Shown here piece after piece: positions 54,019 through 64,000 of a DNA stretch of 64,000 nt. The stretch lies in assembly GCA_964436125.1 (NCBI GenBank), contig CAYTBT010000003.1, positions 68,878-132,877 on the forward strand. Reading direction: 5' to 3'. The position numbers were made by a program, and so were the translations under genes. This DNA is from an uncultured Saprospiraceae bacterium. Its GTDB lineage: Bacteria > Bacteroidota > Bacteroidia > Chitinophagales > Saprospiraceae. The notes below the pieces were generated by a model. That model ran no database searches, was not told where the DNA came from, and saw nothing but the letters and a program-made list of their open reading frames with translations. The number at the start of each line of letters is the position of its first letter. Position 1 is the first letter of the stretch.

Positions 54019-54654
54019 AATAGACTATCACGGATTAAAACAGGCGCAGAAGATAGGAAAATTTATTGGAAAGGAGCTTTTCGGCTGATGAATTAAGTCA
54101 GGATACTGATTAGGTCGTTATTTCATTGAGGAAAGATGAAGAGCTTTCCTTATACCGGCAGCTCAAAGATACACCTGATAAAAGCTGTACAGGATTGCGC
54201 ATCTTGTATTTACAATGATAAAATTACCAATAAATATATCCAGAATACGCAATATTGTAATGTAAACATATACGATATGCGCAATAATGTGATTCTGTAT
54301 AAGCTATACAGTAGAAAGATTTTAGAAATAATTTGGCCAATAAGAGGAAATATTGTAGGATTGCGTATATTTGAGAGTTACCTGCAAGCCAAAAGAACGA
54401 GCAGACAATATTGAAATAACGGGAATGAATGAATTTTTATTTTTGCCAACACACATTTAAAACAATTTTTGCCCACCGCACAAATGGCACATTTGGTTTT
54501 TCCCAACGCTCAAGCCTATGCTTAAAAAACCAAAAGAGCCATTTTTTTCCAACGCTTCGACCATCAATTTGACAAAATACCATCAGACTCACAAAACAAA
54601 TAAAACAGGAAAGCGTTTAAACCGTATAAGAAAAAATAGTACTTTTACACAAGA

Positions 54655-55020
54655 ATGAAAAGACAGTATTACATATTATTCATTGTATTGTTGGGTTTCT
54701 TTTTGACACCAACACTGTCTTTTGCTTGTAGCAACCCTACAGAAAAAACGGAAAAAACCTGTTGCGAAAAGGAAAATCCGTCAGACCAAAAAAAGGACTG
54801 TTGCAAAACAGGACATTTGCAAAACAACGGCAATGGACACGATTGCGATGGAAATTGCACCCACTCTTTTTGCCAATGTCCGGGTTTTCACTGCGCTGTT
54901 GTGATTCCCACAATATCCAATAAGCACATACATTTTGCTTTGAAGCAAAACTTTTCTGATAAAGAAGCCTATATTTCTTCGGGCTTTTATTCCATTTGGA
55001 TACCCCCAAAAATAAGTTAA
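54655..55020 (+). CDS. Cys/His-rich lipoprotein, putative metal-binding (hypothetical)
   Basis: 121 aa with lipobox LSFAC|S. The mature N-terminal 60 aa carry 11 Cys and several His (CCEKE..CCKTGH..HDCDGNCTHSFCQCPGFHC). It is the first gene of the copper cluster. Confidence 0.5.
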   Translation: MKRQYYILFIVLLGFFLTPTLSFACSNPTEKTEKTCCEKENPSDQKKDCCKTGHLQNNGNGHDCDGNCTHSFCQCPGFHCAVVIPTISNKHIHFALKQNFSDKEAYISSGFYSIWIPPKIS

Positions 55021-55122
55021 ATTCCTATACGGACAGCCATAGGTACGTCCTTTTGTGAGCAAAATATGTTTTGCTTGCACTTTCTATTATCAAAATTTAC
55101 AGGAATTTAAAATTTAAAAAAA

Positions 55123-55674
55123 ATGAAGTCATATATTTTAATGGTAGCTTTTACCGCTACCACATTTGTTGCTTGTGGCAACAATCAAAAATCAAACGAA
55201 ACAGCGAATGTTGTGGAGCAAGTTTCAACAGAAACACAATATCAAAATGCAGGAATAGAGGAAGTAATCACTTATTATCTGAGTTTAAAAAATGCATTGA
55301 CATCCGATAATTCAGAAAAAGCTGCGAAAGCAGGCGGTAAGCTAAAAACTGCCTTGGTCAATCTTGGGAATCAAGAAATGACCAAAAAGCAACAAAAAGC
55401 TTATGACGACATTGCAGAAGCAGCGGAAGAAAATGCAGAGCATATTTCAGAAAACGGTGGAAAAATTGACCATCAGCGTGAGCACTTTCAGAGTTTGAGC
55501 GAAGGCATATATATCCTTGTCAAAGTCTTTGGAACTTCACAAACGCTGTACAAAGATTATTGCCCGATGAAAGAATCCATTTGGTTAAGCAAGACTAAGG
55601 ATATAAAAAATCCTTACTATGGCCAAAGTATGCTCTCTTGCGGAACGGTAAAAGAAACCATCAGCAAGGAATAA
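55123..55674 (+). CDS. DUF3347 domain lipoprotein (metal-resistance associated)
   Basis: Lipobox FVAC|G and the C-terminal pattern YCPM...WLS....I.NPYYG..ML.CG, recalled as the DUF3347 signature. Confidence 0.7.
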   Translation: MKSYILMVAFTATTFVACGNNQKSNETANVVEQVSTETQYQNAGIEEVITYYLSLKNALTSDNSEKAAKAGGKLKTALVNLGNQEMTKKQQKAYDDIAEAAEENAEHISENGGKIDHQREHFQSLSEGIYILVKVFGTSQTLYKDYCPMKESIWLSKTKDIKNPYYGQSMLSCGTVKETISKE

Positions 55675-55684
55675 TACCGGGAAA

Positions 55685-56176
55685 ATGAACAAACGTAAAA
55701 CCATTATCCTGATAGTGGTGGTTGCTTTTATCGTTATACAGTTTTTCAGACCTGACCGGAACAATTCCGGTCAGGTTTATGAAAAAGCTATAACGCAACT
55801 CTACCCCATTCCGGATAACGTCAATCTCATATTACAGCAGTCCTGCGTGAATTGCCATTCCAACAATACGGAATACCCTTGGTATGCCAAGGTGCAACCT
55901 GTTGGTTGGTTCCTGAACTACCATATCCGAAATGCAAAAGAGCAGTTAAACTTAGATGAATTTGCGGAATATTCTGAAAGGAAACGCATCAACAAATTAC
56001 GGTCAATAAGAGACCAGGTAAAGGACGGCGAAATGCCATTGTGGTCTTATACCCTGATGCACGAAGAAGCCAAATTATCCGAAACAGAAAAATCGTTGTT
56101 AGTCGATTGGCTGAATACAACGATAGACAGCCTTAAAACAATACAGCGAAACAAATATTTAAAATACTTAAAATGA
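55685..56176 (+). CDS. Haem-binding domain protein (CxxCH)
   Basis: An N-terminal TM helix, then CVNCHSNNTEYPWYAKVQPVGW, which is the pattern of the Haem_bd family. Confidence 0.7.
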   Translation: MNKRKTIILIVVVAFIVIQFFRPDRNNSGQVYEKAITQLYPIPDNVNLILQQSCVNCHSNNTEYPWYAKVQPVGWFLNYHIRNAKEQLNLDEFAEYSERKRINKLRSIRDQVKDGEMPLWSYTLMHEEAKLSETEKSLLVDWLNTTIDSLKTIQRNKYLKYLK

Positions 56177-58707
56177 AATATATAAAAATTATATCGACGT
56201 CAATTCTAATTTTGTTCATAGGCTATTCGGCTTTTGCGCAAGAATATGTTCCCGAGCAATTTAATCACGGGAACAATAAAACATACGAACCCTTCACAAA
56301 TTTTGCGGCACCTGTTGCCGAACCAACCCCATTGAACGCCCCTGTAAAATGCCCAATTTCCAATTTGGAAGAAAACGTTGCGACCAAAACCATAAAGGCA
56401 GCCAATGCGGGAATCCACTTTCCGAAAGGAACAAAAGGCGTGAAAACGGTACGTTATGATTTATATGTAACAGATACTATCGTAAATTACACAGGCAAAG
56501 AAAGGCACGGGATTGCCGTCAATGGCACTATTCCTGCGCCAACCTTGGTATTTACTGTTGGCGACACAGCGGTTATTTACGTGCATAACCGTTCCGACAA
56601 ACCAAGTTCTATTCATTGGCACGGTGTACAGTTGCAAAACCGTTTTGACGGTGTTCCTTACCTCACCCAACAACCTATACCGCCACATACTACCCATATT
56701 TACAAATTTGTCGTAGTGCAGTCAGGCACGTATTGGTATCACAGCCATTTTAAACTGCGAGAACAACTTGGCCTTTATGGTGCGCTTATATTCAACAAAA
56801 GAAATGAACCGGATATCCCTACTATTCCCATAGTTTTGAGCGAATGGAGCGATATAAAACCCAAACAAATCAACCGAATGTTGCACACAGGCAACGATTG
56901 GTTTGGCATAAAAAAAGGAAGCACTCAAAGCTATTGGGAAGCGATTAAAGCAGGAAAATTAGGCGTAAAGTTCGTCAACGAGTGGAAAAGAATGGAAGCA
57001 ATGGATGTGAGCGATGTGTACTATGACCGTTTTCTTTTGAACGGAAAAACTTCACAAACATTCTCTCAATTTAAAGCGGGCGAAAAAGTACGATTGCGGG
57101 TTGTGAACGGTGGCGCATCGTCCTATTTTTGGCTAACCTACAGCGGTGGCGAGATGATGGTGGTAGCCAATGACGGCAATGATGTCGTTCCGGTAATGGT
57201 TGACCGATTAATTATGGGGCCATCGGAAACCTACGATGTGGTTGTTACCATTCCCGAGAATATGCAATACGAATTTTTGGCAACGCCCGAAGACCGTACG
57301 GGTTCGGCTTCCCTTTGGTTGGGAAGCGGTATGAAAATGCCTGCAAAGGAACTGCCGCCTTTGAAATTATTTGAAGGAATGCAGATGATGAATCAGATGA
57401 TGAAAATGAATGGCGATATGAAACCGATGGGAATGGATATGACCTTACAGAAAATGGATATGAATTCTGTTATGTACCCTGAAATGGATAATAGTGGTAT
57501 GCATAATATGGAAAATATGGACGGAATGGAAGGGATGAATAATTCTCATCAACATAACAAAGAAACAACTGAAACTTATGTTTGTCCAATGCACCCCGAA
57601 GTAACATCCGACAAACCCGGTAAATGCCCGAAATGTGGAATGAAGTTGGTTAAAAAAGATGCGGATGGAAATATGGAAAATATGGATATGTCATCAGACA
57701 AAATAACGACATTGAATTATAATATGCTTAAAGCTACCCACAAAACCACATTGCCCGAAGGTCCTTGGAAAACTTTACATTTTGAATTGACAGGCAATAT
57801 GAACCGTTATGTTTGGTCTATTAACGGAAAAACCGTTGCAGAAACCGATAAAATCAAAATAAAACAAGGCGAAAACCTGCGTATTATTTTACACAACAAC
57901 ACGATGATGCGCCACCCGATGCACCTGCACGGACACGACTTTCGGTTGGTCAATCAATATGACGAATATTCACCAATGAAAAACGTGGTGGATATTATGC
58001 CAATGGAAACCGATACATTGGAATTTCACGCATCGGAAAGCGGAGATTGGTTTTTCCATTGCCATATTTTATATCATATGATGAGTGGTATGGGCAGGGT
58101 GTTCAGTTACCAAAACAGCCCAAACAACCCGGAAATCCCTAACCCACAAAAAGCGTACAAAAAACTACAAAGGGAAGCAAGTATGTATCATTTTATGTTT
58201 CAAAATGATTTTGCCACCAACGGAAATGACGGTATGATGATGTATGCCAATACACGTTGGGCATTTCAGGCAGAATGGCGGTTGGGATATAACGACCACC
58301 ACGGCTATGAAGTGGAAACACATTTTGGAAGGTACTTTGGCAAAAAGCAATGGATATTTCCTTATGTAGGCATTGATTGGCGTTATCGCAAAAATTCCGC
58401 ACAAGAAGAAAACCTTTTTGGACAAACAAGTACAAAAGACGACCGTAAAGTTTTTCACGTGGGTATTCAATATACTTTACCGTGGCTAATCGTTTTGGAT
58501 GCAAGTATAGACCACACAGGAAACGTAAGGGTAGAGTTGGAACGTGATGATATTCCGTTGACGGCAAGGACAAGAGCAATGTTTATGGTAAACACAGACA
58601 AAGAATGGATGATTGGTGGAAGGTATATTTTAACCCGATATTTTTCACTTTCAACTCATTATGACAGTGATATGGGATTTGGGGCAGGAATAACATTTAC
58701 CTACTAA
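56173..58707 (+). CDS. Multicopper oxidase (CopA-like) with a Met-rich insert, a CPxH...CPxCG metal-binding module and a C-terminal CopB-like outer-membrane domain
   Basis: The four MCO copper motifs are present: HWHG, WYHSH, HPMHLHGH and HCHILYHMMSGM. The Met-rich tract is at 57379-57545 and YVCPMHPEVTSDKPGKCPKCGM at 57576-57650. The last ~175 aa (from ~58183) resemble CopB/PcoB (WIFPYVGIDWRY...) and end ...GAGITFTY. Confidence 0.85.
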   Translation: MKYIKIISTSILILFIGYSAFAQEYVPEQFNHGNNKTYEPFTNFAAPVAEPTPLNAPVKCPISNLEENVATKTIKAANAGIHFPKGTKGVKTVRYDLYVTDTIVNYTGKERHGIAVNGTIPAPTLVFTVGDTAVIYVHNRSDKPSSIHWHGVQLQNRFDGVPYLTQQPIPPHTTHIYKFVVVQSGTYWYHSHFKLREQLGLYGALIFNKRNEPDIPTIPIVLSEWSDIKPKQINRMLHTGNDWFGIKKGSTQSYWEAIKAGKLGVKFVNEWKRMEAMDVSDVYYDRFLLNGKTSQTFSQFKAGEKVRLRVVNGGASSYFWLTYSGGEMMVVANDGNDVVPVMVDRLIMGPSETYDVVVTIPENMQYEFLATPEDRTGSASLWLGSGMKMPAKELPPLKLFEGMQMMNQMMKMNGDMKPMGMDMTLQKMDMNSVMYPEMDNSGMHNMENMDGMEGMNNSHQHNKETTETYVCPMHPEVTSDKPGKCPKCGMKLVKKDADGNMENMDMSSDKITTLNYNMLKATHKTTLPEGPWKTLHFELTGNMNRYVWSINGKTVAETDKIKIKQGENLRIILHNNTMMRHPMHLHGHDFRLVNQYDEYSPMKNVVDIMPMETDTLEFHASESGDWFFHCHILYHMMSGMGRVFSYQNSPNNPEIPNPQKAYKKLQREASMYHFMFQNDFATNGNDGMMMYANTRWAFQAEWRLGYNDHHGYEVETHFGRYFGKKQWIFPYVGIDWRYRKNSAQEENLFGQTSTKDDRKVFHVGIQYTLPWLIVLDASIDHTGNVRVELERDDIPLTARTRAMFMVNTDKEWMIGGRYILTRYFSLSTHYDSDMGFGAGITFTY

Positions 58708-58732
58708 ACGATAAAGGAACAAGCCCACACAA

Positions 58733-58798
58733 AAGGCACACACATTGCCAAGTCGCACCAGCCAGCGCACCGCCAAAACTTGGCAAAGAGTGTGCCTT
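58733..58798 (+). terminator. Long inverted repeat downstream of the oxidase gene (possible terminator)
   Basis: aaggcacac-aca-ttgccaagt [24-nt loop] acttggcaa-aga-gtgtgcctt, giving 9+9 bp around a 3-nt mismatch. No clear T-run follows. Confidence 0.35.
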
Positions 58799-58891
58799 CC
58801 CTTCCTAAGAAAAATTGTTTAAATTGCCAACGCTAAAAAATAAAAAATCTGATAGAACAACCACAACTGAATGATGGCCAGCAGGTAACAA

Positions 58892-59139
58892 CGGCTATGC
58901 GCCAGGCGGGAAACAGTCTTCGGTTGATAGATTACGGAAGCGAGAACGGTTTCGTTTTCAAAAGAACAATTCCGGGCAAAAGCCCCGCCCGGCGCATAGC
59001 CGCGGGACGATGTAGCACCATACGCTCCGCGTATGGCGCTACATCGTTCCGGTGGCTGCACCACCAGACGTACTTGTCCGCTCCGCGGACGGCGCACATC
59101 AGGTGGTTTTTCGAAATACCGCCTCGGTGCAAGCACCGG
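58892..59139. other. GC-rich multi-hairpin non-coding element (function unknown)
   Basis: Hand-verified stems are 58892-58910/58984-59002 (18 of 19 bp), 59005-59025/59029-59050 (21 bp), 59051-59065, 59076-59090, 59101-59124 and 59125-59138. By my count GC is about 65-70% over 58981-59100, against an AT-rich background. ORFs are open in several frames on both strands, as expected for stop-poor GC-rich DNA. Confidence 0.6.
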
Positions 59140-59240
59140 TCGGAACTTCGTAAAGCCACCGGAACGTTGTGTGCCATTGCTACAGAAAATACTCACCAAA
59201 TTAAAAGCTACTTTCTCAAAAGATTTATTTCCATTTCATT

Positions 59241-59270
59241 TTTGTAAACCAAAGTTTTTTTATAATTTTG
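59241..59270 (+). promoter_or_regulatory. Bacteroidota-type promoter (TTTG-N18-TAATTTTG) for the C-M-R operon
   Basis: TTTG lies at 59241-59244 and TAATTTTG at 59263-59270, 31 nt upstream of the HTH gene ATG. A GAC-N7-GTC dyad (59271-59283) sits between the box and the start. Confidence 0.55.
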
Positions 59271-59300
59271 GACATATTTAGTCTAAAACATTTTTGACCA

Positions 59301-59609
59301 ATGAAGACTTTGGGAACCATATTAAAATTAGCAAGGAAAGAAAGAAATCTAATCCTTAGGAAAGTTGCAGCAGAAGTGGACATCGACCAATCTTTGATTA
59401 GTAAATTCGAAAAGGACGAACGAAAGCCCACCGAAGAACAACTAAAACGACTTGCTACATTTTATAATATCCCCGAAAAAGAATTAACCATAAATTGGTA
59501 TTCAGATAAAATAGCAGATGAATTAAAATATGCTGAATCAACAGCAGAAATATTAAAGGTAGCAGAGGAAAAAATCCAATATTTTAAAGCAAGAGAAAAT
59601 GGAAAATAA
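59301..59609 (+). CDS. XRE-family HTH protein (candidate R-M controller, C protein)
   Basis: 102 aa with HTH LGTILKLARKERNLILRKVAAEVDIDQSLISKFEKDER. Its stop overlaps the methyltransferase start by 11 nt. Confidence 0.75.
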   Translation: MKTLGTILKLARKERNLILRKVAAEVDIDQSLISKFEKDERKPTEEQLKRLATFYNIPEKELTINWYSDKIADELKYAESTAEILKVAEEKIQYFKARENGK

Positions 59610-60843
59610 AGAATTAAGAGTAGCGGAACTATTTGCAGGAGTTGGAGGTTTTCGACTTGGTTTAGAAAAGCATAACTATAAAGTAATTTGGAGTAACCAA
59701 TGGGAGCCAGCCACGAAAAAGCAACACGCTTCAATGGTTTATGAAGCACGATTTGGCAAAGAAAATCATTCTAATGTAGACATTGCCAAAGTTCCAACGG
59801 GCGAAATACCAGATCACGATCTGCTTTGCGGAGGGTTTCCTTGCCAAGATTATTCTGTAGCCACGACATTACATAATTCTAAGGGCTTAGAAGGAAAAAA
59901 AGGCGTTTTATGGTGGTCTATACATAGGATTCTTAGTGAGAAAAAGAACAAACCAAAATATTTGTTCCTAGAAAATGTAGATCGTTTATTAAAATCACCT
60001 GCGAGCCAACGAGGTAGGGATTTTGCGATAATGCTAAAAAGTCTAAATCAATTAGGTTATGCGGTAGAATGGCGTGTTGTCAACGCAGCTGAATACGGAA
60101 TGCCGCAACGAAGAAGGCGTACTTTTATCCTTGGTTACCATAAATCAACGGAAATATATAAGCGAATACAAGAAACAAAAGCGTTAGATTGGCTTTTAAG
60201 AGAAGGAACAATAGCTAATGCTTTCCAAGTACATAATGAACCTGCTTTATTTTGTCCAAAATTTAAATTGAAAGGAGATTTGGTAGAAATCACCAATAAT
60301 TTCAATAAAAACGGAAAGAAATCCCCCTTTGAAAATACAGGCTTGATGATAAACGAGGTGGTTTCTTCATTAAAAACCACACCAAAATATGGCGGCTCAC
60401 AAACCGTTTTGAAAGATGTTTTACAAAATGGTGAGGTAACCAAAGAATTTTTTATTCCAGAAAGTGACAAAGAAAAATGGGAATATTTGAAAGGAGCAAA
60501 ATCTTTTGAACGTGTATCAAAAAACGGACACAAATACAAGTATTCGGAAGGTAGTATGACATATCCTGATGCATTAGATAGACCTTCTCGAACCATTATT
60601 ACGGGAGAAGGCGGTAAATCACCTTCCCGATTTAAACACGTTGTAAAAACAAATCGTGGTTTACGCCGATTAACGCCTGTGGAATTGGAGCGGTTAAATA
60701 TGTTTCCGGACGACCACACCAAATTAGAGGGAATCACAGATAACAAAAGAGCTTTCTTTATGGGGAATGCTTTAGTTGTTGGAGTAATTGAGAAACTAGG
60801 AAAAGAACTTTATAACCAAATTTTTAATTTTGAATATGCCTGA
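59599..60843 (+). CDS. DNA (cytosine-5)-methyltransferase, M.Sau3AI-like
   Basis: m5C motifs I (ELFAGVGGF), IV (GGFPCQDYS), VI (ENV), VIII (QRRRR) and X (GNAL). At 414 aa, the overall pattern (NQWEP, GKKGVLWW, ENVDRLLKSPASQRGRDFA, VEWRVVNAAEYG) matches my recollection of M.Sau3AI. Confidence 0.9.
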   Translation: MENKELRVAELFAGVGGFRLGLEKHNYKVIWSNQWEPATKKQHASMVYEARFGKENHSNVDIAKVPTGEIPDHDLLCGGFPCQDYSVATTLHNSKGLEGKKGVLWWSIHRILSEKKNKPKYLFLENVDRLLKSPASQRGRDFAIMLKSLNQLGYAVEWRVVNAAEYGMPQRRRRTFILGYHKSTEIYKRIQETKALDWLLREGTIANAFQVHNEPALFCPKFKLKGDLVEITNNFNKNGKKSPFENTGLMINEVVSSLKTTPKYGGSQTVLKDVLQNGEVTKEFFIPESDKEKWEYLKGAKSFERVSKNGHKYKYSEGSMTYPDALDRPSRTIITGEGGKSPSRFKHVVKTNRGLRRLTPVELERLNMFPDDHTKLEGITDNKRAFFMGNALVVGVIEKLGKELYNQIFNFEYA

Positions 60844-62224
60844 ATATGACATTAATTCAGCAGAATCGATAATTAATTTTGCTAAAAAACTAAAAAACAA
60901 AACCCTTCACGACGTTTGTGGAGCCAAAATCGAAGAACACGGCTATACGGGAAAAGGACATTTTGGGCAAATATTGGAAAAATTCTATTTTGGTTACGAG
61001 CCAAATTCTGATGCTCAAGCTGACTTCCCTGAAGCCGGTTTGGAACTTAAATCGAGTCCATTAAAGACCTTGAAAAATGGTGATTTCCGTTCTAAAGAAA
61101 GATTGGTTCTTAACATTATCAACTATTTAGAAGTACACAAAGAAAGTTTTGAGGATAGCTCTTTTTGGAAAAAGAATGCACATTTGTTACTTATTTTCTA
61201 CCTGTGGAAGAAAGAAATAAATGCTGTAGATTATCTCATAAAATTAGTGGACGATTGGAAGTACCCGAATGAAGATTTAAAAATCATCAAACACGATTGG
61301 GAAACGATTAATCAAAAGATAAAAGCAGGTAAAGCCCACGAAATATCAGAAGGAGATACTTTTTATCTTGGAGCTTGTACAAAAGGGTCAACAGCAGCGA
61401 AATCATTAAGAGAGCAACCTTTCAGCGACACTAAAGCAAAACAAAGAGCATATTCACTTAAACAAGGTTATGTTAACCATATTATTGCTCAAATAGCTAA
61501 AGGAGAAAGCGGAACTTATGGTAAAATAGTTGATAGACCTGAAATTCTAGACTCAGAAACTATTGAAGATATTATCTTATCTAAATTCAGACCTTTTTAC
61601 GGCAAGACAGCACAACAAATAGAGACAGATTTTAAACTTAATTTGAATCAAAAAGCTAAAAGTTATTTTGCCAATTTGACTAAATCAATTTTAGGAATAG
61701 GCTTAGATAAAAGAATTGAAGAATTTGAGAAAGCCGATATAATCGTCAAGACAATTCGATTAAAAGAAAATGATTTGCCAAAAGAGGATATTTCGTTCCC
61801 TACATTCAAATACAAGGACTTAATTGAAACAGATTGGGAAGAATCAGATTTTAAAAATATTTTAGAAAGTAAATTTTTCTTTGTTTTCTACCAGTTTGAG
61901 AATAAAAATCTTATTCTAAAAAAAGTACGTTTTTGGAATATGCCTCAATCAGATATTAAAATTGCTAAAAAAGTATGGGTAACAACAAAAAGGAATATTG
62001 AACAAGGTAGAATAGTTGAACGAGTTACAGAAAATGGCAGACGAATAACTCATTTTCCTAAGAAAACCGAAAATAAGGTCAGCCACGTTCGACCACACGC
62101 AAGAAATTCTAAAGACACTTACCCATTACCTATAAAGGATAAAACAACAGGAACAACTGAATATACAAAACACTGTTTTTGGTTGAATGCAAGTTACGTT
62201 AGGGATAAGATATACCAAAAATGA
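60830..62224 (+). CDS. Type II restriction endonuclease, Sau3AI/MutH-like
   Basis: 464 aa. The N-terminal motif GKGHFGQILEKFYFGYEPNSDAQADFPEAGLELKSSPLK parallels the MutH/Sau3AI catalytic region (KG..G..LE..LG.....DF...G.ELK..P). It overlaps the MTase stop by 14 nt. Confidence 0.75.
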   Translation: MNMPEYDINSAESIINFAKKLKNKTLHDVCGAKIEEHGYTGKGHFGQILEKFYFGYEPNSDAQADFPEAGLELKSSPLKTLKNGDFRSKERLVLNIINYLEVHKESFEDSSFWKKNAHLLLIFYLWKKEINAVDYLIKLVDDWKYPNEDLKIIKHDWETINQKIKAGKAHEISEGDTFYLGACTKGSTAAKSLREQPFSDTKAKQRAYSLKQGYVNHIIAQIAKGESGTYGKIVDRPEILDSETIEDIILSKFRPFYGKTAQQIETDFKLNLNQKAKSYFANLTKSILGIGLDKRIEEFEKADIIVKTIRLKENDLPKEDISFPTFKYKDLIETDWEESDFKNILESKFFFVFYQFENKNLILKKVRFWNMPQSDIKIAKKVWVTTKRNIEQGRIVERVTENGRRITHFPKKTENKVSHVRPHARNSKDTYPLPIKDKTTGTTEYTKHCFWLNASYVRDKIYQK

Positions 62225-63161
62225 AACTAAAGGAAACCGCAACGGCAACACAACAACTAGCGTTTCGTTGCGCCCGCAGGGTGAACAATGAAACGCCCTG
62301 TTGGACGGAACCTCTACAAGGTGACTCCTATGGAATTATCAATATGTACCTTTGGGGATTTAAGCGGAATAGATACCGCTTGTGAAGAGGAATAAGAGGA
62401 TAGACTGTCTTAAAACCGGATTTTTATCCTTATTTCATCTCCCGATAGCTATCAGGAAAGCATACCTCCCCTTACCCATTCTACGAGGTCTGCAGAACAG
62501 GGACAGCTGAACGAAGCGATAAATATGCCTGTGGTGGTCCTCTTACTCCAAAAGTGTGGATGAGTATTAAATTTCCGACTTTACAACACGGACATTTATG
62601 GAGACGAGTCTTTATCTCTTGGCTGGGTCTTTCTACACCGAGTAATTTTTGAAGTCTCTGGAGTTTCCCTCGCTTCCAACTACTACTCAATATGCCGTAA
62701 TGCCTTATACGGACGAATCGATATGGAAGGATATGTTGTGCAAAACGACGGACAAATTCTTCATTGCTTAGCTGCATTTCCTTTTTCCGTGACCCTTGCC
62801 GATAATCCTTATAGGTAAAAGTGACATGGTCAGCTGTCACATCCCTTATTCGGTGGTTACTGATGGCAACTTTGTGGCTATATCTGCCTAAGTATTCGAT
62901 TACTTGAGCCGGTCCTCCAAATGGTCGCTTGGCATATACTACCCATTCCTTCGTAAACAAGCTATCCAATAAAGCCTGATCTTGTATCTTGTGTTTCCGA
63001 AGCTCTGCGACATATTTTGCTCGGAATACTTTACTCATTGCTTTCACGGAAAATAAATACTTGCTACTTCTGACTTGCCTTTCCCATCTATTATGCTTGT
63101 TCATTCCTCCTCCCGGAACAATGCAATGTAAGTGGGGATGTAAACTCAAGTTCTGTCCCCA

Positions 63162-63210
63162 CCACGTTAGAAATAAACCAATGAAATAATCACATAGATT
63201 TCTAACGTGG
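63162..63210. mobile_element. 49-bp miniature (internally deleted) copy of the GIY-YIG element, flanked by CCCA
   Basis: The sequence is ccacgttagaaataaaccaatgaaataat-cacatag-atttctaacgtgg. Its first 29 nt and last 13 nt are identical to the ends of the 365-bp element, and the 13-bp TIRs are perfect. Confidence 0.8.
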
Positions 63211-63214
63211 CCCA

Positions 63215-63579
63215 CCACGTTAGAAATAAACCAATGAAATAATATCCCATCCCCTTAACAAGAAGTTAGTTTAACAATCGATTGAAAAGTAATACATTTA
63301 CTATATGAAGGATTTAAAACAATATTTCGTGTATGTACTGAATTCGCAGAAAGATGGTTCATGGTATATCGGATATACTCAAAATATTAAAGAGAGACTT
63401 AATCAACATAATCACGGAGAATCCTATTATACAAAACGTAAAAAACCTTGGGATTTATTATACTATGAAGTTTCTTTCAATAAATATGATGCCATTGCAA
63501 GAGAGAAATATCTAAAAAGTGGAATGGGACGAAGGTATTTAAAGAATCGTTTAAAGAATCAATTAAATTTCTAACGTGG
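63215..63579. mobile_element. 365-bp TIR-bounded element whose only gene encodes a GIY-YIG nuclease
   Basis: Perfect 13-bp terminal inverted repeats CCACGTTAGAAAT / ATTTCTAACGTGG. CCCA is present on both sides (63211-63214 and 63580-63583) and also at 63158-63161. Confidence 0.8.
63305..63574 (+). CDS. GIY-YIG nuclease family protein (URI-domain only, YhbQ-like size)
   Basis: 89 aa. YFVYVLNSQKDGSWYIGYTQNIKERLNQHN contains the GIY(x10)YIG pattern, with conserved R and N/E downstream. The stop codon lies inside the right TIR. Confidence 0.85.
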   Translation: MKDLKQYFVYVLNSQKDGSWYIGYTQNIKERLNQHNHGESYYTKRKKPWDLLYYEVSFNKYDAIAREKYLKSGMGRRYLKNRLKNQLNF

Positions 63580-64000
63580 CCCATGTATGCAATAAAGCTA
63601 CCATCCCCAGTTGTACTCCTTCGGTATGACCAAATTGATTCAGTGTTTGCCAGGCAGCTTGGAACAGGCTACTGTAGATTATCCTCGGCTGAAATAGCGC
63701 AAGTTGATTTAGTTCGCCGGGCAAAGTGAATACCAAGTGATAATACGTACACGGCAATAAATCCCTCGCACGCTTTTCTATCCATTCCACCCGTTTATGC
63801 CCTTGGCATTTTGGGCAATGTCTATTGCGACAGCTATTGTAACTTATTCGGATGTTCCCGCATGTATCACAGGCATCAATATGCCCTCCCAGTGCTTTTG
63901 TCCGGCAATGTTTTAAGGCACGTAGCGTTTTTTCTTGATGTATATTGAGATGCAATCCCGATATATCAACTTGCCGTAGTACATCACTTACTTCCCACTG

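What the first reader, a model, noticed from the sequence alone, without database searches (positions are those of the whole stretch)
58892..59139. GC-rich, densely structured ~250-nt island between the copper cluster and the R-M operon
A segment of about 65-70% GC (my count over 58981-59100) sits in an AT-rich genome and has no credible ORF. It folds by hand into an 18/19-bp long-range stem (58892-58910 with 58984-59002) and a 21-bp hairpin (59005-59050). At least four further hairpins follow at 59051-65, 59076-90, 59101-24 and 59125-38. Two hairpins share the same apex, CGC-TCC-GCG. This density of structure is typical of a structured ncRNA or of a single-strand DNA recognition element such as an oriT or sso, or a rolling-circle ori or ter. 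An IS91 rolling-circle element lies 3 kb away. I could not match it to tmRNA, RNase P, SRP RNA, group II intron domain V or attC signatures.
Basis: seen in the sequence. Interest (0 to 1): 0.62.

Follow-up and report, generated by a model that had tools for sequence, protein, structure and literature searches.

The report
Integron-like recombination sites in Bacteroidota
The GC-rich island is most likely two folded DNA recombination sites that separate mobile gene cassettes (copper resistance, a gene-less mini-cassette, a restriction-modification operon) in an integron-like gene-capture system that is common in Bacteroidota but that I could not find formally described.

Summary
Positions 58877-59178 are 58% GC, against 40% for the window, and fold far better than shuffled sequence (z -8.4 and -9.8).

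It is not one element. Site A (58877-59008) belongs to a ~135-nt family that I found in 26 other Bacteroidota genomes. There it stands in co-oriented arrays, 0.6-1.5 kb apart.

Such sites obey an integron-type cassette rule. The 10 nt after the conserved GTT of one site are the reverse complement of the 10 nt before the conserved AAC of the next. The mean match is 7.5/10, against 3.3/10 for random pairs.

Whole cassettes, each with its downstream site, recur 99.5% identical in three genera. The breakpoints lie at the GTTs.

A Xer/IntI-like tyrosine recombinase heads such arrays: 50 co-oriented downstream sites against 9 elsewhere. It lacks the integron-integrase insertion. Stem mismatches favour folding of the bottom strand (103 against 9).

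In the window:
- Site A closes a 4.6-kb copper cassette that starts at 54377.
- 59009-59165 is a gene-less mini-cassette (site B).
- The restriction-modification operon is the next cassette.
- An IS91-like element cuts off that cassette's own site.

There is no recombinase in the window. The island is not an Rfam RNA and not an IS91 end. The recombination mechanism is inferred, not shown.

The parts
54377..54389 (+). Start of cassette 1 (GTTACCTGCAAGC). It is complementary to the 13 nt before site A. No recognisable site stands before it.
   Evidence: GTTACCTGC at 54377 is the reverse complement of 58881-58889; the same 13-nt start and 13-nt end bound an unrelated 667-nt cassette in L105.
54390..58876 (+). 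Cargo of cassette 1: the copper cluster. It holds a small Cys-rich ORF, DUF3347, a haem-binding protein and an 844-aa multicopper oxidase.
   Evidence: Pfam hits; ORFs.
58733..58798 (+). Hairpin Z after the oxidase stop codon. It is terminator-like, belongs to the cargo and is not a recombination site.
   Evidence: I2; relatives lie 45-70 nt upstream of the sites of other cassettes in L096 and L093.
58877..59008 (+). Site A, the attC-like recombination site of the copper cassette. Its parts are: cassette-specific box GCCAGCAGGTAAC 58877-58889; spacer AA; stem 58892-58910 / 58984-59002 with one A.C mismatch; interior 58911-58983; 3' spacer CGGGAC 59003-59008.
   Evidence: 27 aligned copies with 86% mean identity, and nhmmer E = 1.7e-39 for the window copy. 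Array context.
59009..59045 (+). Paired ends of a gene-less cassette. GATGTAGCACCAT (59009-21) and ATGGCGCTACATC (59033-45) are 12/13 complementary. The GTT-to-GAT and AAC-to-ATC changes compensate each other.
   Evidence: One search shows the parallel: a 35-nt hairpin plus a 94-nt site, in five identical copies, in the Albibacterium array.
59046..59165 (+). Site B, the site of the gene-less cassette. It has an outer stem 59046-59057 / 59154-59165 and a branched GC-rich interior. The ATC-to-GTT distance is 120 nt, which is the family's typical size.
   Evidence: bottom strand -47.7 against top strand -43.6 kcal/mol with DNA parameters.
59166..62254 (+). Cassette 3, the restriction-modification operon: HTH 59301-59609, m5C methylase 59599-60843, MutH/Sau3AI-like nuclease 60830-62224. 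It starts GTTGTGTGCCATT and ends AACGGCAACACAAC (62241-62254). The two are complementary apart from one extra base and the usual A/G mismatch.
   Evidence: Caveat: the last CAAC may belong to the IS91-like element or be its target.
62251..64000 (-). IS91-like element. Its conserved right end abuts the end of cassette 3, so the site of cassette 3 should lie beyond the window.
   Evidence: 62251-62313 aligns with the 3' flank of the IS91 gene in L099; depth rises from 21 to 277 at 62251, with several different left flanks. Y2_Tnp.

Best explanation
The island is the junction of three mobile gene cassettes in an integron-like array.

Site A (58877-59008) is the recombination site at the 3' end of a 4.6-kb copper-resistance cassette. 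Positions 59009-59165 are a complete cassette with no gene: a 37-nt hairpin made of its own two ends, followed by its site B. At 59166 the restriction-modification cassette begins.

Each site, when single-stranded, folds into a long imperfect hairpin with four parts:
- a ~13-bp box formed by cassette-specific sequence, which ends in AAC on one side and starts with GTT on the other;
- an asymmetric unpaired spacer, 1-3 nt on one side and 5-7 nt ending in RAAC or RACC on the other;
- an 18-19-bp stem;
- a variable tip.

By analogy with integrons, a Xer/IntI-like tyrosine recombinase would bind two folded sites, cut at the AAC/GTT triplet, and excise or insert cassettes as circles. In other genomes this recombinase is encoded at the head of such arrays. 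It is not encoded in this window.

Shown here: the fold; the family and its arrays; the cassette rule; the movement of whole cassettes with breakpoints at GTT; the link to the recombinase; and the strand bias.

Inferred: that the substrate is single-stranded bottom-strand DNA; that this recombinase is the catalyst; the exact cleavage position; and whether the array in this window is still active.
For: 1. Family. A stem-only pattern found 30 loci, 26 of them true relatives of site A, in Flavobacteriaceae, Weeksellaceae and Sphingobacteriaceae. In the 27-copy alignment the flanking AAC is invariant and GTT is present in 25 of 27, although neither was part of the search pattern.

2. Arrays. Copies stand in the same orientation, 0.6-1.5 kb apart. 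Kaistella treverensis (L104) has a recombinase gene followed by five cassettes. Their sites share the architecture but have five different stem sequences.

3. Cassette rule. Over 39 adjacent site pairs, the 10 nt after GTT of site n match the reverse complement of the 10 nt before AAC of site n+1 at a mean of 7.5/10, against 3.3/10 for random pairs. At least 8/10 match in 69% of adjacent pairs against 1.8% of random pairs.

4. Mobility. A DUF1259 cassette with its site A is 99.5% identical in L106, L093 and L089. The homology begins and ends at the GTTs, and the upstream site in L089 is a different one. A 129-nt gene-less cassette occurs five times, identical, in one Albibacterium array. Each copy sits between different neighbours, and one follows a site A directly.

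5. Recombinase link. Around 80 relatives of the recombinase there are 50 sites downstream and co-oriented. There are 2 downstream in the opposite orientation and 4 + 3 upstream.

6. Strand bias. With orientation taken from the recombinase gene and a symmetric scanner, stem mismatches on the sense strand are A.C 103 times and G.T 9 times. The bottom strand is the more stable one in 44 of 51 sites.

7. Structure conserved, sequence not. Among 107 sites there are 65 distinct stems, and all four Watson-Crick pair types occur at every stem position.

8. This window. GTTACCTGCAAGC at 54377 pairs with GCCAGCAGGTAAC at 58877. The ends of the mini-cassette pair 12/13. The start and end of the restriction-modification cassette pair.

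9. Literature. In Riemerella, a gene with a 140-bp attC-like 3' region integrates without flanking homology, and the authors call the mechanism not yet elucidated (PMC13148043).
Against: - No recombinase relative lies in the 64-kb window.
- Site A reads GAT where the family has GTT, and site B reads ATC where it has AAC. These sites may be impaired.
- The first cassette is not preceded by a recognisable site, and I identified no attI-like site or common promoter.
- The recombinases next to sister arrays lack the integron-integrase insertion. That insertion is held to be needed for recognising folded attC sites.
- Site B has no relative in the collections searched.
- The interior of site A is 86% conserved across three families. 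That is unlike the variable tip of classical attC sites and hints at a further constraint.
- My scanner selects paired stems and requires AAC and GTT, so the percentage paired and the triplet frequencies among scanned sites are partly built in.
- Nothing here is experimental.
Confidence: 0.8

Rival explanations
1. A structured non-coding RNA, or a pair of them, is transcribed from the island. It might be a regulatory or 3'-end-stabilising RNA of the copper or restriction-modification operon.
For: The fold is very stable on both strands. A soil metatranscriptome holds a 153-nt contig covering 58855-59007. The interior of site A is conserved at 86%. The G.T bias would also suit G.U pairs in an RNA made from the bottom strand.
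Against: No Rfam match comes near a gathering score. There is no compensatory change within the site-A family. An RNA does not explain why each cassette's start is complementary to its own end, why whole cassettes move with breakpoints at GTT, or why the sites follow a recombinase gene. The ends of the metatranscriptome contig coincide with the repeat boundaries, where assembly graphs break.
Confidence: 0.07
2. The island is an origin or terminator (oriIS or terIS) or a relic end of the rolling-circle IS91-family element 3 kb away. On this view the restriction-modification operon is IS91 cargo.
For: An IS91 Y2 transposase lies at 62481-64000. L099 has a site A next to an IS91 relic fused to a tyrosine recombinase. 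IS91-linked recombinases are the closest relatives of integron integrases (10.1101/542381).
Against: Only 1 of the other site-A loci holds any IS91 sequence. The conserved IS91-like right end in this window starts at about 62251, as shown by alignment with L099 and by the jump in read depth. Site A stands in arrays headed by a tyrosine recombinase with no HUH gene.
Confidence: 0.03
3. The island is a cluster of REP/MITE-like palindromic selfish repeats that pile up in intergenic DNA and happen to lie between operons. No dedicated cassette recombination is involved.
For: Site A is multi-copy in metagenomes, with many different flanks. Gene-less units such as site B and the Albibacterium 129-nt unit behave like small selfish elements. 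A RAYT-like gene with REP-like hairpins lies at about 51.3-52.3 kb (an earlier first-reader note, not checked here).
Against: There are no target-site duplications. Insertions fall only at the C|GTT junction between cassettes, in one orientation, with cassette-specific complementary ends and with cargo moving together with its site. The REP hairpins described near the RAYT-like gene have a different sequence.
Confidence: 0.06
4. The island is a decayed fragment of a GC-rich foreign gene.
For: The GC content is high relative to the genome, and ORFs of 81-126 aa cross the island.
Against: None of those ORFs has a family match at E <= 0.1. The high GC sits in the paired stems; the interior of site A is 42.5% GC. 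Relatives are conserved as palindromes, not as reading frames.
Confidence: 0.01

Closest known systems
Sedentary chromosomal integrons and their attC sites (for example the ~125-nt VCR repeats of the Vibrio cholerae superintegron) and CALINs (attC clusters with no integrase nearby; Cury et al. 2016, PMC4889954)
   Same: Both have co-oriented arrays in which cargo is followed by an imperfect palindromic site of ~60-140 nt. Both have conserved AAC and GTT triplets at the base of the hairpin. In both, each cassette's first bases are complementary to the bases before its own site. Structure is conserved while sequence varies, and folding is biased to the bottom strand. A tyrosine recombinase heads the array. 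As in a CALIN, this window has sites but no recombinase.
   Different: The linked recombinase lacks the IntI-specific insertion and carries a ~100-aa N-terminal extension. The paired box is ~13 bp rather than 7. Only GTTR of the GTTRRRY consensus holds. The strand bias comes from A.C against G.T mismatches, and I saw no single extrahelical bases. The recombinase gene points the same way as the cassettes. No attI or common promoter was found.
'Inverted-integrase' integrons (Treponema, Chlorobi and others); from my own knowledge and the title and abstract of PMC3607928
   Same: The recombinase gene has the same orientation as the cassette array.
   Different: To my knowledge those integrases still carry the IntI insertion and their sites are found by standard attC models. 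I did not test this here.
Tyrosine recombinases of IS91 and IS3 elements, the 'integron-like subgroup' of Smyshlyaev et al. (10.1101/542381)
   Same: They are IntI's closest relatives and lack the IntI insertion. L099 carries such a recombinase fused to an IS91 relic beside a site A.
   Different: The array-head recombinases (L104, L109) are only 31-33% identical to the L099 protein and stand without any IS91 gene.
The aph(3')-IVb, lnu(H) and blaRATA units of Riemerella anatipestifer (PMC13148043)
   Same: A gene with a short 5' leader and a ~140-bp 3' region forms attC-like stem-loops and integrates at one chromosomal locus without flanking homology. The host is also in Flavobacteriales.
   Different: I could not compare the sequences. 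That paper names no recombinase and does not describe arrays.
IS1111-attC elements and group IIC-attC introns, which target attC sites (PMC3001079, abstract)
   Same: A mobile element inserts specifically into cassette recombination sites. The IS91-like element here sits directly after the YAAC core in the window and in L099.
   Different: The element is of a different class (HUH rolling-circle). The target preference rests on six junctions in all.

Membership tests
Integron (intI + attI/Pc + attC cassettes) | An integrase with the IntI-specific additional domain | tested here: not met
   The array-head recombinase of L104 aligns with VchIntIA (2a3v) in two pieces. Twenty residues of the query stand opposite IntI residues 184-245. 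TIGR02249 scores 208 and 174 bits, below its cut-off of 265, while the XerA/integron-integrase model scores 222 against a cut-off of 220. No recombinase lies in the window.
Integron (intI + attI/Pc + attC cassettes) | attC: an imperfect palindrome bounded by conserved ...AAC and GTT... core sites | tested here: met
   The 27 copies were collected by their stems alone. In them AAC is invariant and GTT is present in 25 of 27. Only GTTR of GTTRRRY is kept. In the window, site A has AAC and GAT, and site B has ATC and GTT.
Integron (intI + attI/Pc + attC cassettes) | Cassette boundary inside the core site, so that a cassette's first bases pair with the bases before its own attC | tested here: met
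   Adjacent pairs match 7.5/10 against 3.3/10 for random pairs. Breakpoints of identical cassettes fall at the GTTs. Three cassettes in the window show the pairing.
Integron (intI + attI/Pc + attC cassettes) | Bottom-strand folding with extrahelical bases that set strand choice | tested here: inconclusive
   The bottom strand is favoured: mismatches are 103 A.C against 9 G.T, and the bottom strand is more stable in 44 of 51 sites. I saw no conserved single-base bulges. The asymmetry lies in mismatches and in a 1-3 nt against 5-7 nt spacer.
Integron (intI + attI/Pc + attC cassettes) | An attI site and a common promoter at the head of the array | tested here: inconclusive
   I recognised no conserved sequence between the recombinase gene and the first cassette (L104). 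The region before 54377 has no relative in the other loci.
Integron (intI + attI/Pc + attC cassettes) | Sites detected by the IntegronFinder attC covariance model | not testable with these tools
   That model is not available here. IntegronFinder 2.0 reports almost no integrons in Bacteroidetes (PMC9024848).
CALIN (cluster of attC sites lacking an integrase) | Two or more sites close together with no integrase nearby | tested here: met
   Sites A and B are adjacent, a third site is implied beyond the IS91-like element, and there is no recombinase in 64 kb. This holds only in the sense of this non-canonical kind of site.
IS91/ISCR terminal sequences (oriIS, terIS) | A conserved end next to a Y2 HUH transposase gene, found wherever the element is found | tested here: not met
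   IS91 sequence is present in 1 of the other site-A loci. The IS91-like end in this window is at about 62251.
Described structured RNA families (Rfam 15) | A match to a covariance model at its gathering score | tested here: not met
   The best matches are 21.8 bits against a gathering score of 70 and 21.2 bits against 45. Both are microRNA hairpin models.

The most novel reading that the evidence does not exclude
Bacteroidota may carry their own widespread gene-capture platform, parallel to the integron. It would be run by a Xer/IntI-like recombinase that lacks the domain thought to be essential for recognising folded attC sites. It would use ~135-nt sites with a 13-bp cassette-specific box, with strand choice encoded by G.T against A.C mismatches. 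It would move large multi-gene cargo (copper resistance, mercury resistance, restriction-modification) between classes of the phylum. It would have its own parasites: gene-less mini-cassettes, and IS91-like elements that insert at the site core. This would explain why integron surveys find the phylum almost empty. It would also explain the homology-independent gene integration reported in Riemerella.
Probability: 0.55. Interest if true: 0.8.

Novelty: new variant of a known kind. Interest (0 to 1): 0.68.

Why it matters
Integrons are the textbook route by which bacteria collect and reshuffle accessory genes, and surveys report Bacteroidetes as nearly devoid of them. If this reading holds, the phylum has an equivalent platform that current integron-finding tools apparently miss.

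The platform carries metal-resistance and defence cargo. Identical cassettes occur in different genera, so it would be a route of gene flow in soil, marine and animal-associated Bacteroidota.

It would also show that recombination at folded sites can work without the IntI-specific domain. That bears on how integrons arose from Xer-like recombinases.

For annotation, ~120-160-nt GC-rich hairpins after genes in Bacteroidota should be read as cassette boundaries.

Tried and rejected
- **Rfam.** A scan at E <= 10 gave only chance matches to microRNA and snoRNA hairpin models.
- **Sequence searches.** A 'distant' DNA search of the PLSDB plasmids found nothing. An exact 33-mer from the central hairpin is absent from genome contigs. 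There is no second copy of any unit inside the window.
- **Oxidase relatives.** The 80 loci around relatives of the multicopper oxidase hold no relative of the island, so the island is not part of a conserved copper locus.
- **ORFs.** Pfam on the ORFs crossing the island gave nothing.
- **IS91 idea.** Rejected.
- **A reading of my own that I withdrew.** I first took 62248-62311 ('unit D') for the short site of the restriction-modification cassette. Alignment with the IS91 flank in L099 and the jump in read depth show that it is the conserved end of the IS91-like element.
- **Site B.** The stem pattern found only two chance hits in high-GC Actinobacteria. A 23-mer from site B and a 23-mer from the end of the restriction-modification cassette found nothing in metagenome contigs.
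- **Extending the window.** An exact-protein look-up gave nothing for the nuclease and only a 2.3-kb read contig for the methylase.

Full report
**1.

The stretch 58877-59178 is 57.9% GC and 58981-59100 is 67.5%. The window as a whole is 40.1%. The stretch 58870-59180 folds at -155.8 kcal/mol on the + strand and -163.2 on the - strand. Shuffles average about -108 to -110, so z is -8.4 and -9.8, and no shuffle folds as well. No ORF crossing the island matches a protein family, and no Rfam model comes near its threshold.

One feature was missed. A 12-bp perfect stem, 59046-59057 with 59154-59165, encloses the four small hairpins. The island is therefore two large folded units joined by the 21-23-bp hairpin.

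**2. The island is composite, and its first unit is a dispersed family**

Contigs of public soil, wastewater and gut metagenomes were laid on the region. They show that 58887-59005 occurs in many contigs with different flanks. A search of species-representative genomes used only the outer stem (GGCTATGCGCC, a gap of 62-92 nt, GGCGCATAGCC). It gave 30 loci, and 26 of them are clear relatives. They come from:
- Flavobacteriaceae: Mesonia, Salegentibacter, Salinimicrobium, Aequorivita, Flavobacterium;
- Weeksellaceae: Chryseobacterium, Kaistella, Empedobacter;
- Sphingobacteriaceae: Albibacterium, Parapedobacter.

The window itself looks Chitinophagaceae-like, judging from the best matches of its copper oxidase. 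The 27 aligned copies are 86% identical. Beyond the stem they share an invariant AAC on the 5' side and GCGGAAC-GTT on the 3' side, with variable sequence outside these. Within this family the stem never varies, so the family alone gives no covariation.

**3. The family sits in arrays that obey a cassette rule**

A profile search found co-oriented arrays: four copies on a 4.2-kb contig, three copies on each of two further contigs, and pairs of copies elsewhere.

Read on its minus strand, the Kaistella treverensis locus (L104) shows recA, then a tyrosine recombinase gene, then five cassettes. Each cassette is followed by a site of the same build. The five stems have five different sequences, and the last site is a site A.

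I then wrote a generic scanner for this build: AAC, a spacer of 0-4 nt, a 16-nt stem of which at least 15 positions pair, a spacer of 0-8 nt, then GTT. It found many more sites between the site-A copies.

For 39 adjacent pairs, the 10 nt after the GTT of one site match the reverse complement of the 10 nt before the AAC of the next site at a mean of 7.5/10. Random pairings of the same sequences give 3.3/10. At least 8/10 match in 69% of adjacent pairs against 1.8% of random pairs. The failures are almost all pairs more than 2 kb apart, where an intervening site was probably missed.

This is the signature of cassettes that circularise through a crossover at the base of the hairpin, as in integrons.

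**4. Cassettes move, and the site travels with the gene upstream of it**

A cassette encoding a DUF1259 protein, with its site A, is 99.5% identical in three genomes of different genera (L106, L093, L089). The homology starts at the GTT of the preceding site and stops at the GTT after site A. In L089 the preceding site is a different one, and the following cassettes differ in all three genomes.

In Albibacterium sp. RHL897, a 129-nt unit occurs five times, identical, in one array. It consists of a 35-nt hairpin and a 94-nt GC-rich palindrome. Each copy lies between a different upstream site and a different downstream cassette, and is always bounded by C|GTT. One copy directly follows a site A. 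That arrangement is the one seen in the window.

**5. Link to a recombinase**

The recombinase gene stands directly upstream of the array, in the same orientation, in L104, L109 and L091.

The protein has Phage_integrase and SAM_4 domains. It reaches the NCBIfam model 'site-specific tyrosine recombinase/integron integrase' at 222 bits (cut-off 220). It misses the integron-integrase model at 208 and 174 bits (cut-off 265). Among solved structures it is closest to archaeal XerA. Against the Vibrio integron integrase it aligns in two blocks, with 20 residues where IntI has 62. The IntI-specific insertion is therefore absent.

I fetched 80 loci around relatives of this protein, nearly all of them Bacteroidota. 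My scanner finds 50 sites downstream and co-oriented in 285 kb. It finds 2 downstream in the opposite orientation and 7 in the 489 kb upstream. Many of these contigs end within 50-300 nt after the recombinase gene, as expected if repeats that break assemblies follow it.

**6. Strand bias**

I used a scanner that treats A.C and G.T mismatches alike, and took orientation from the recombinase gene. On the sense strand, stem mismatches are A.C 103 times and G.T 9 times. On the bottom strand they therefore become G.T wobbles. With DNA energy parameters the bottom strand is the more stable one in 44 of 51 sites, by 3.5 kcal/mol on average.

Among 107 sites there are 65 distinct stems, and all four Watson-Crick pair types occur at every stem position. 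The structure is conserved while the sequence is not. Note that the scanner itself selects for pairing, so the weight lies on three results that are not built into it: the enrichment next to the recombinase, the cassette rule and the mismatch polarity.

**7. Reading the window**

- **Site A (58877-59008).** It has the family's dimensions: a 2-nt spacer, a 19-bp stem with one A.C mismatch, a 6-nt 3' spacer, and 119 nt from AAC to the next triplet.
- **The copper cassette.** The box before site A, GCCAGCAGGTAAC, is the complement of GTTACCTGC at 54377. That position lies just left of the copper cluster. The same 13-nt start and the same 13-nt end bound an unrelated 667-nt cassette in a Flavobacterium genome. 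So 54377-59008 is one 4.6-kb cassette of four or five genes.
- **The gene-less cassette.** After site A comes GATGTAGCACCAT, a short loop, then ATGGCGCTACATC. These two are 12/13 complementary. The family's GTT and AAC are changed to GAT and ATC in a compensating way. Site B follows (59046-59165), with 120 nt between the triplets. So 59009-59165 is a cassette without a gene.
- **The restriction-modification cassette.** At 59166, GTTGTGTGCCATT opens the HTH-methylase-nuclease operon. It ends AACGGCAACACAAC at 62241-62254. That is the complement of its start, apart from one extra base and the A/G mismatch at the position where the family usually has one.
- **The IS91-like element.** What follows is not that cassette's site but the conserved right end of an IS91-like element. 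It aligns with the 3' flank of the IS91 relic in L099. Read depth jumps from about 21 to 277 at 62251. The listed contigs carry four further left flanks, and they too end in YAAC after an A-rich, cassette-end-like stretch. Whether the last CAAC belongs to the cassette or to the element cannot be settled here.
- **No recombinase.** No relative of the recombinase lies in the 64 kb, so in integron terms this is a CALIN-like cluster.

**8. Comparison with the literature**

- IntegronFinder 2.0 reports that earlier work found only In0 elements in Bacteroidetes, and that the new survey found one complete integron there, in Salinibacter (PMC9024848).
- Smyshlyaev et al. place recombinases of IS91 and IS3 elements next to IntI and note that they lack the IntI insertion (10.1101/542381).
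- A 2026 paper on Riemerella anatipestifer shows that aph(3')-IVb integrates together with 27 bp upstream and 140 bp downstream, without flanking homology. The downstream part folds like an attC site. [quoted passage not shown]
- My searches found no description of the system as such. That is absence from a partial library, not proof.
- Earlier notes of this scan describe the same kind of array in other Bacteroidota genomes. I reached the reading before I saw them, and I count them as agreement, not as evidence.

**9. Verdict**

The island is real and is not a new RNA. It most likely consists of recombination sites of an integron-like cassette system, including a gene-less mini-cassette.

It works like an integron by every sequence test I could apply. 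It fails the membership test on the integrase domain, and it differs in the length of the paired box, the mismatch-coded strand bias and the orientation of the recombinase gene. I therefore file it as a new variant of a known kind.

Open points:
- whether this particular array is still active, given the GAT/ATC triplets, the missing upstream site and the absent recombinase;
- where exactly the cut falls;
- why the interior of site A is so conserved across families.

Noticed in passing
window 62241-62330; L099 780-1060: The IS91-like element ends directly after a YAAC cassette-end core in the window and in L099. Four other copies in soil runs X1 and X4 also have left flanks that look like cassette ends. 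This suggests an IS91 lineage that targets these recombination sites, as IS1111-attC elements and group IIC-attC introns target attC sites.
   Followed up: partly
L099 1040-1966 (-): One ORF joins the N-terminal half of a tyrosine recombinase (31-33% identical to the array-head recombinases) to the C-terminal end of an IS91 transposase. It looks like an internal deletion in a two-gene IS91 element, and it lies beside a site A.
   Followed up: partly
window 54194-54368: Four copies of ATTGCG(C/T)AT in alternating orientation form two overlapping long-range helices, immediately before the start of the first cassette (GTT at 54377). Their wobble polarity is opposite to that of sites A and B. They might be an attI-like landing site, an inverted decayed site, or unrelated. 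No relative was found in the other loci.
   Followed up: partly
window 58733-58798 and 58823; L096 2638-2705; L093 5582-5659: Relatives of hairpin Z occur 45-70 nt upstream of the sites of other cassettes, whose cargo does not match the copper proteins. They are flanked by TGCCAACRC boxes like those at 54441-54555 and 58823. This may be a portable terminator or regulatory module, or a small mobile element.
   Followed up: partly
window 54377-54389 and 58877-58889; L105 2078-2987: Cassettes with unrelated cargo share identical 13-nt starts and identical 13-nt ends, and several other end-pairs recur across genomes. Either the cargo is swapped inside a conserved shell, or only a limited repertoire of end sequences is allowed.
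   Followed up: no
L103 1064-6068; L102 4005-4136: An identical 129-nt gene-less cassette occurs five times in one Albibacterium array. It behaves like a selfish passenger of the system.
   Followed up: yes
L094 4834-6201; L084, L085, L088: The same 11-bp outer stem (GGCTATGCGCC / GGCGCATAGCC) with an unrelated interior occurs in contigs labelled Verrucomicrobiota, Dehalococcoidia, Hyphomicrobiales and Phycisphaerae. About one such hit is expected by chance. In L094 it lies about 360 nt downstream of a recombinase 28% identical to that of L104.
   Followed up: no
L096; L117, L148, L153, L163, L175: A true site A lies on a contig binned as Methanobrevibacter. Close relatives of the recombinase lie on contigs binned as Comamonadaceae, Clostridia, Thermodesulfobacterium, Peptostreptococcaceae and Undinarchaeales. 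This is probably mis-binning, but cross-phylum transfer is not excluded.
   Followed up: no
L104 4641-5765 (-), residues 1-100; L109 4923-6119: The array-head recombinases have a ~100-residue N-terminal extension that matches no Pfam family and is absent from XerA and IntI.
   Followed up: no
window 58911-58983: The interior of site A is about as conserved across three bacterial families as its stem, unlike the variable tip of classical attC sites. I saw no promoter-like motif or ORF in it.
   Followed up: partly
window 58855-59007: A soil metatranscriptome run (X5) holds a 153-nt contig covering this stretch with one difference. Its ends coincide with the repeat boundaries, so it says little about real RNA ends.
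   Followed up: no
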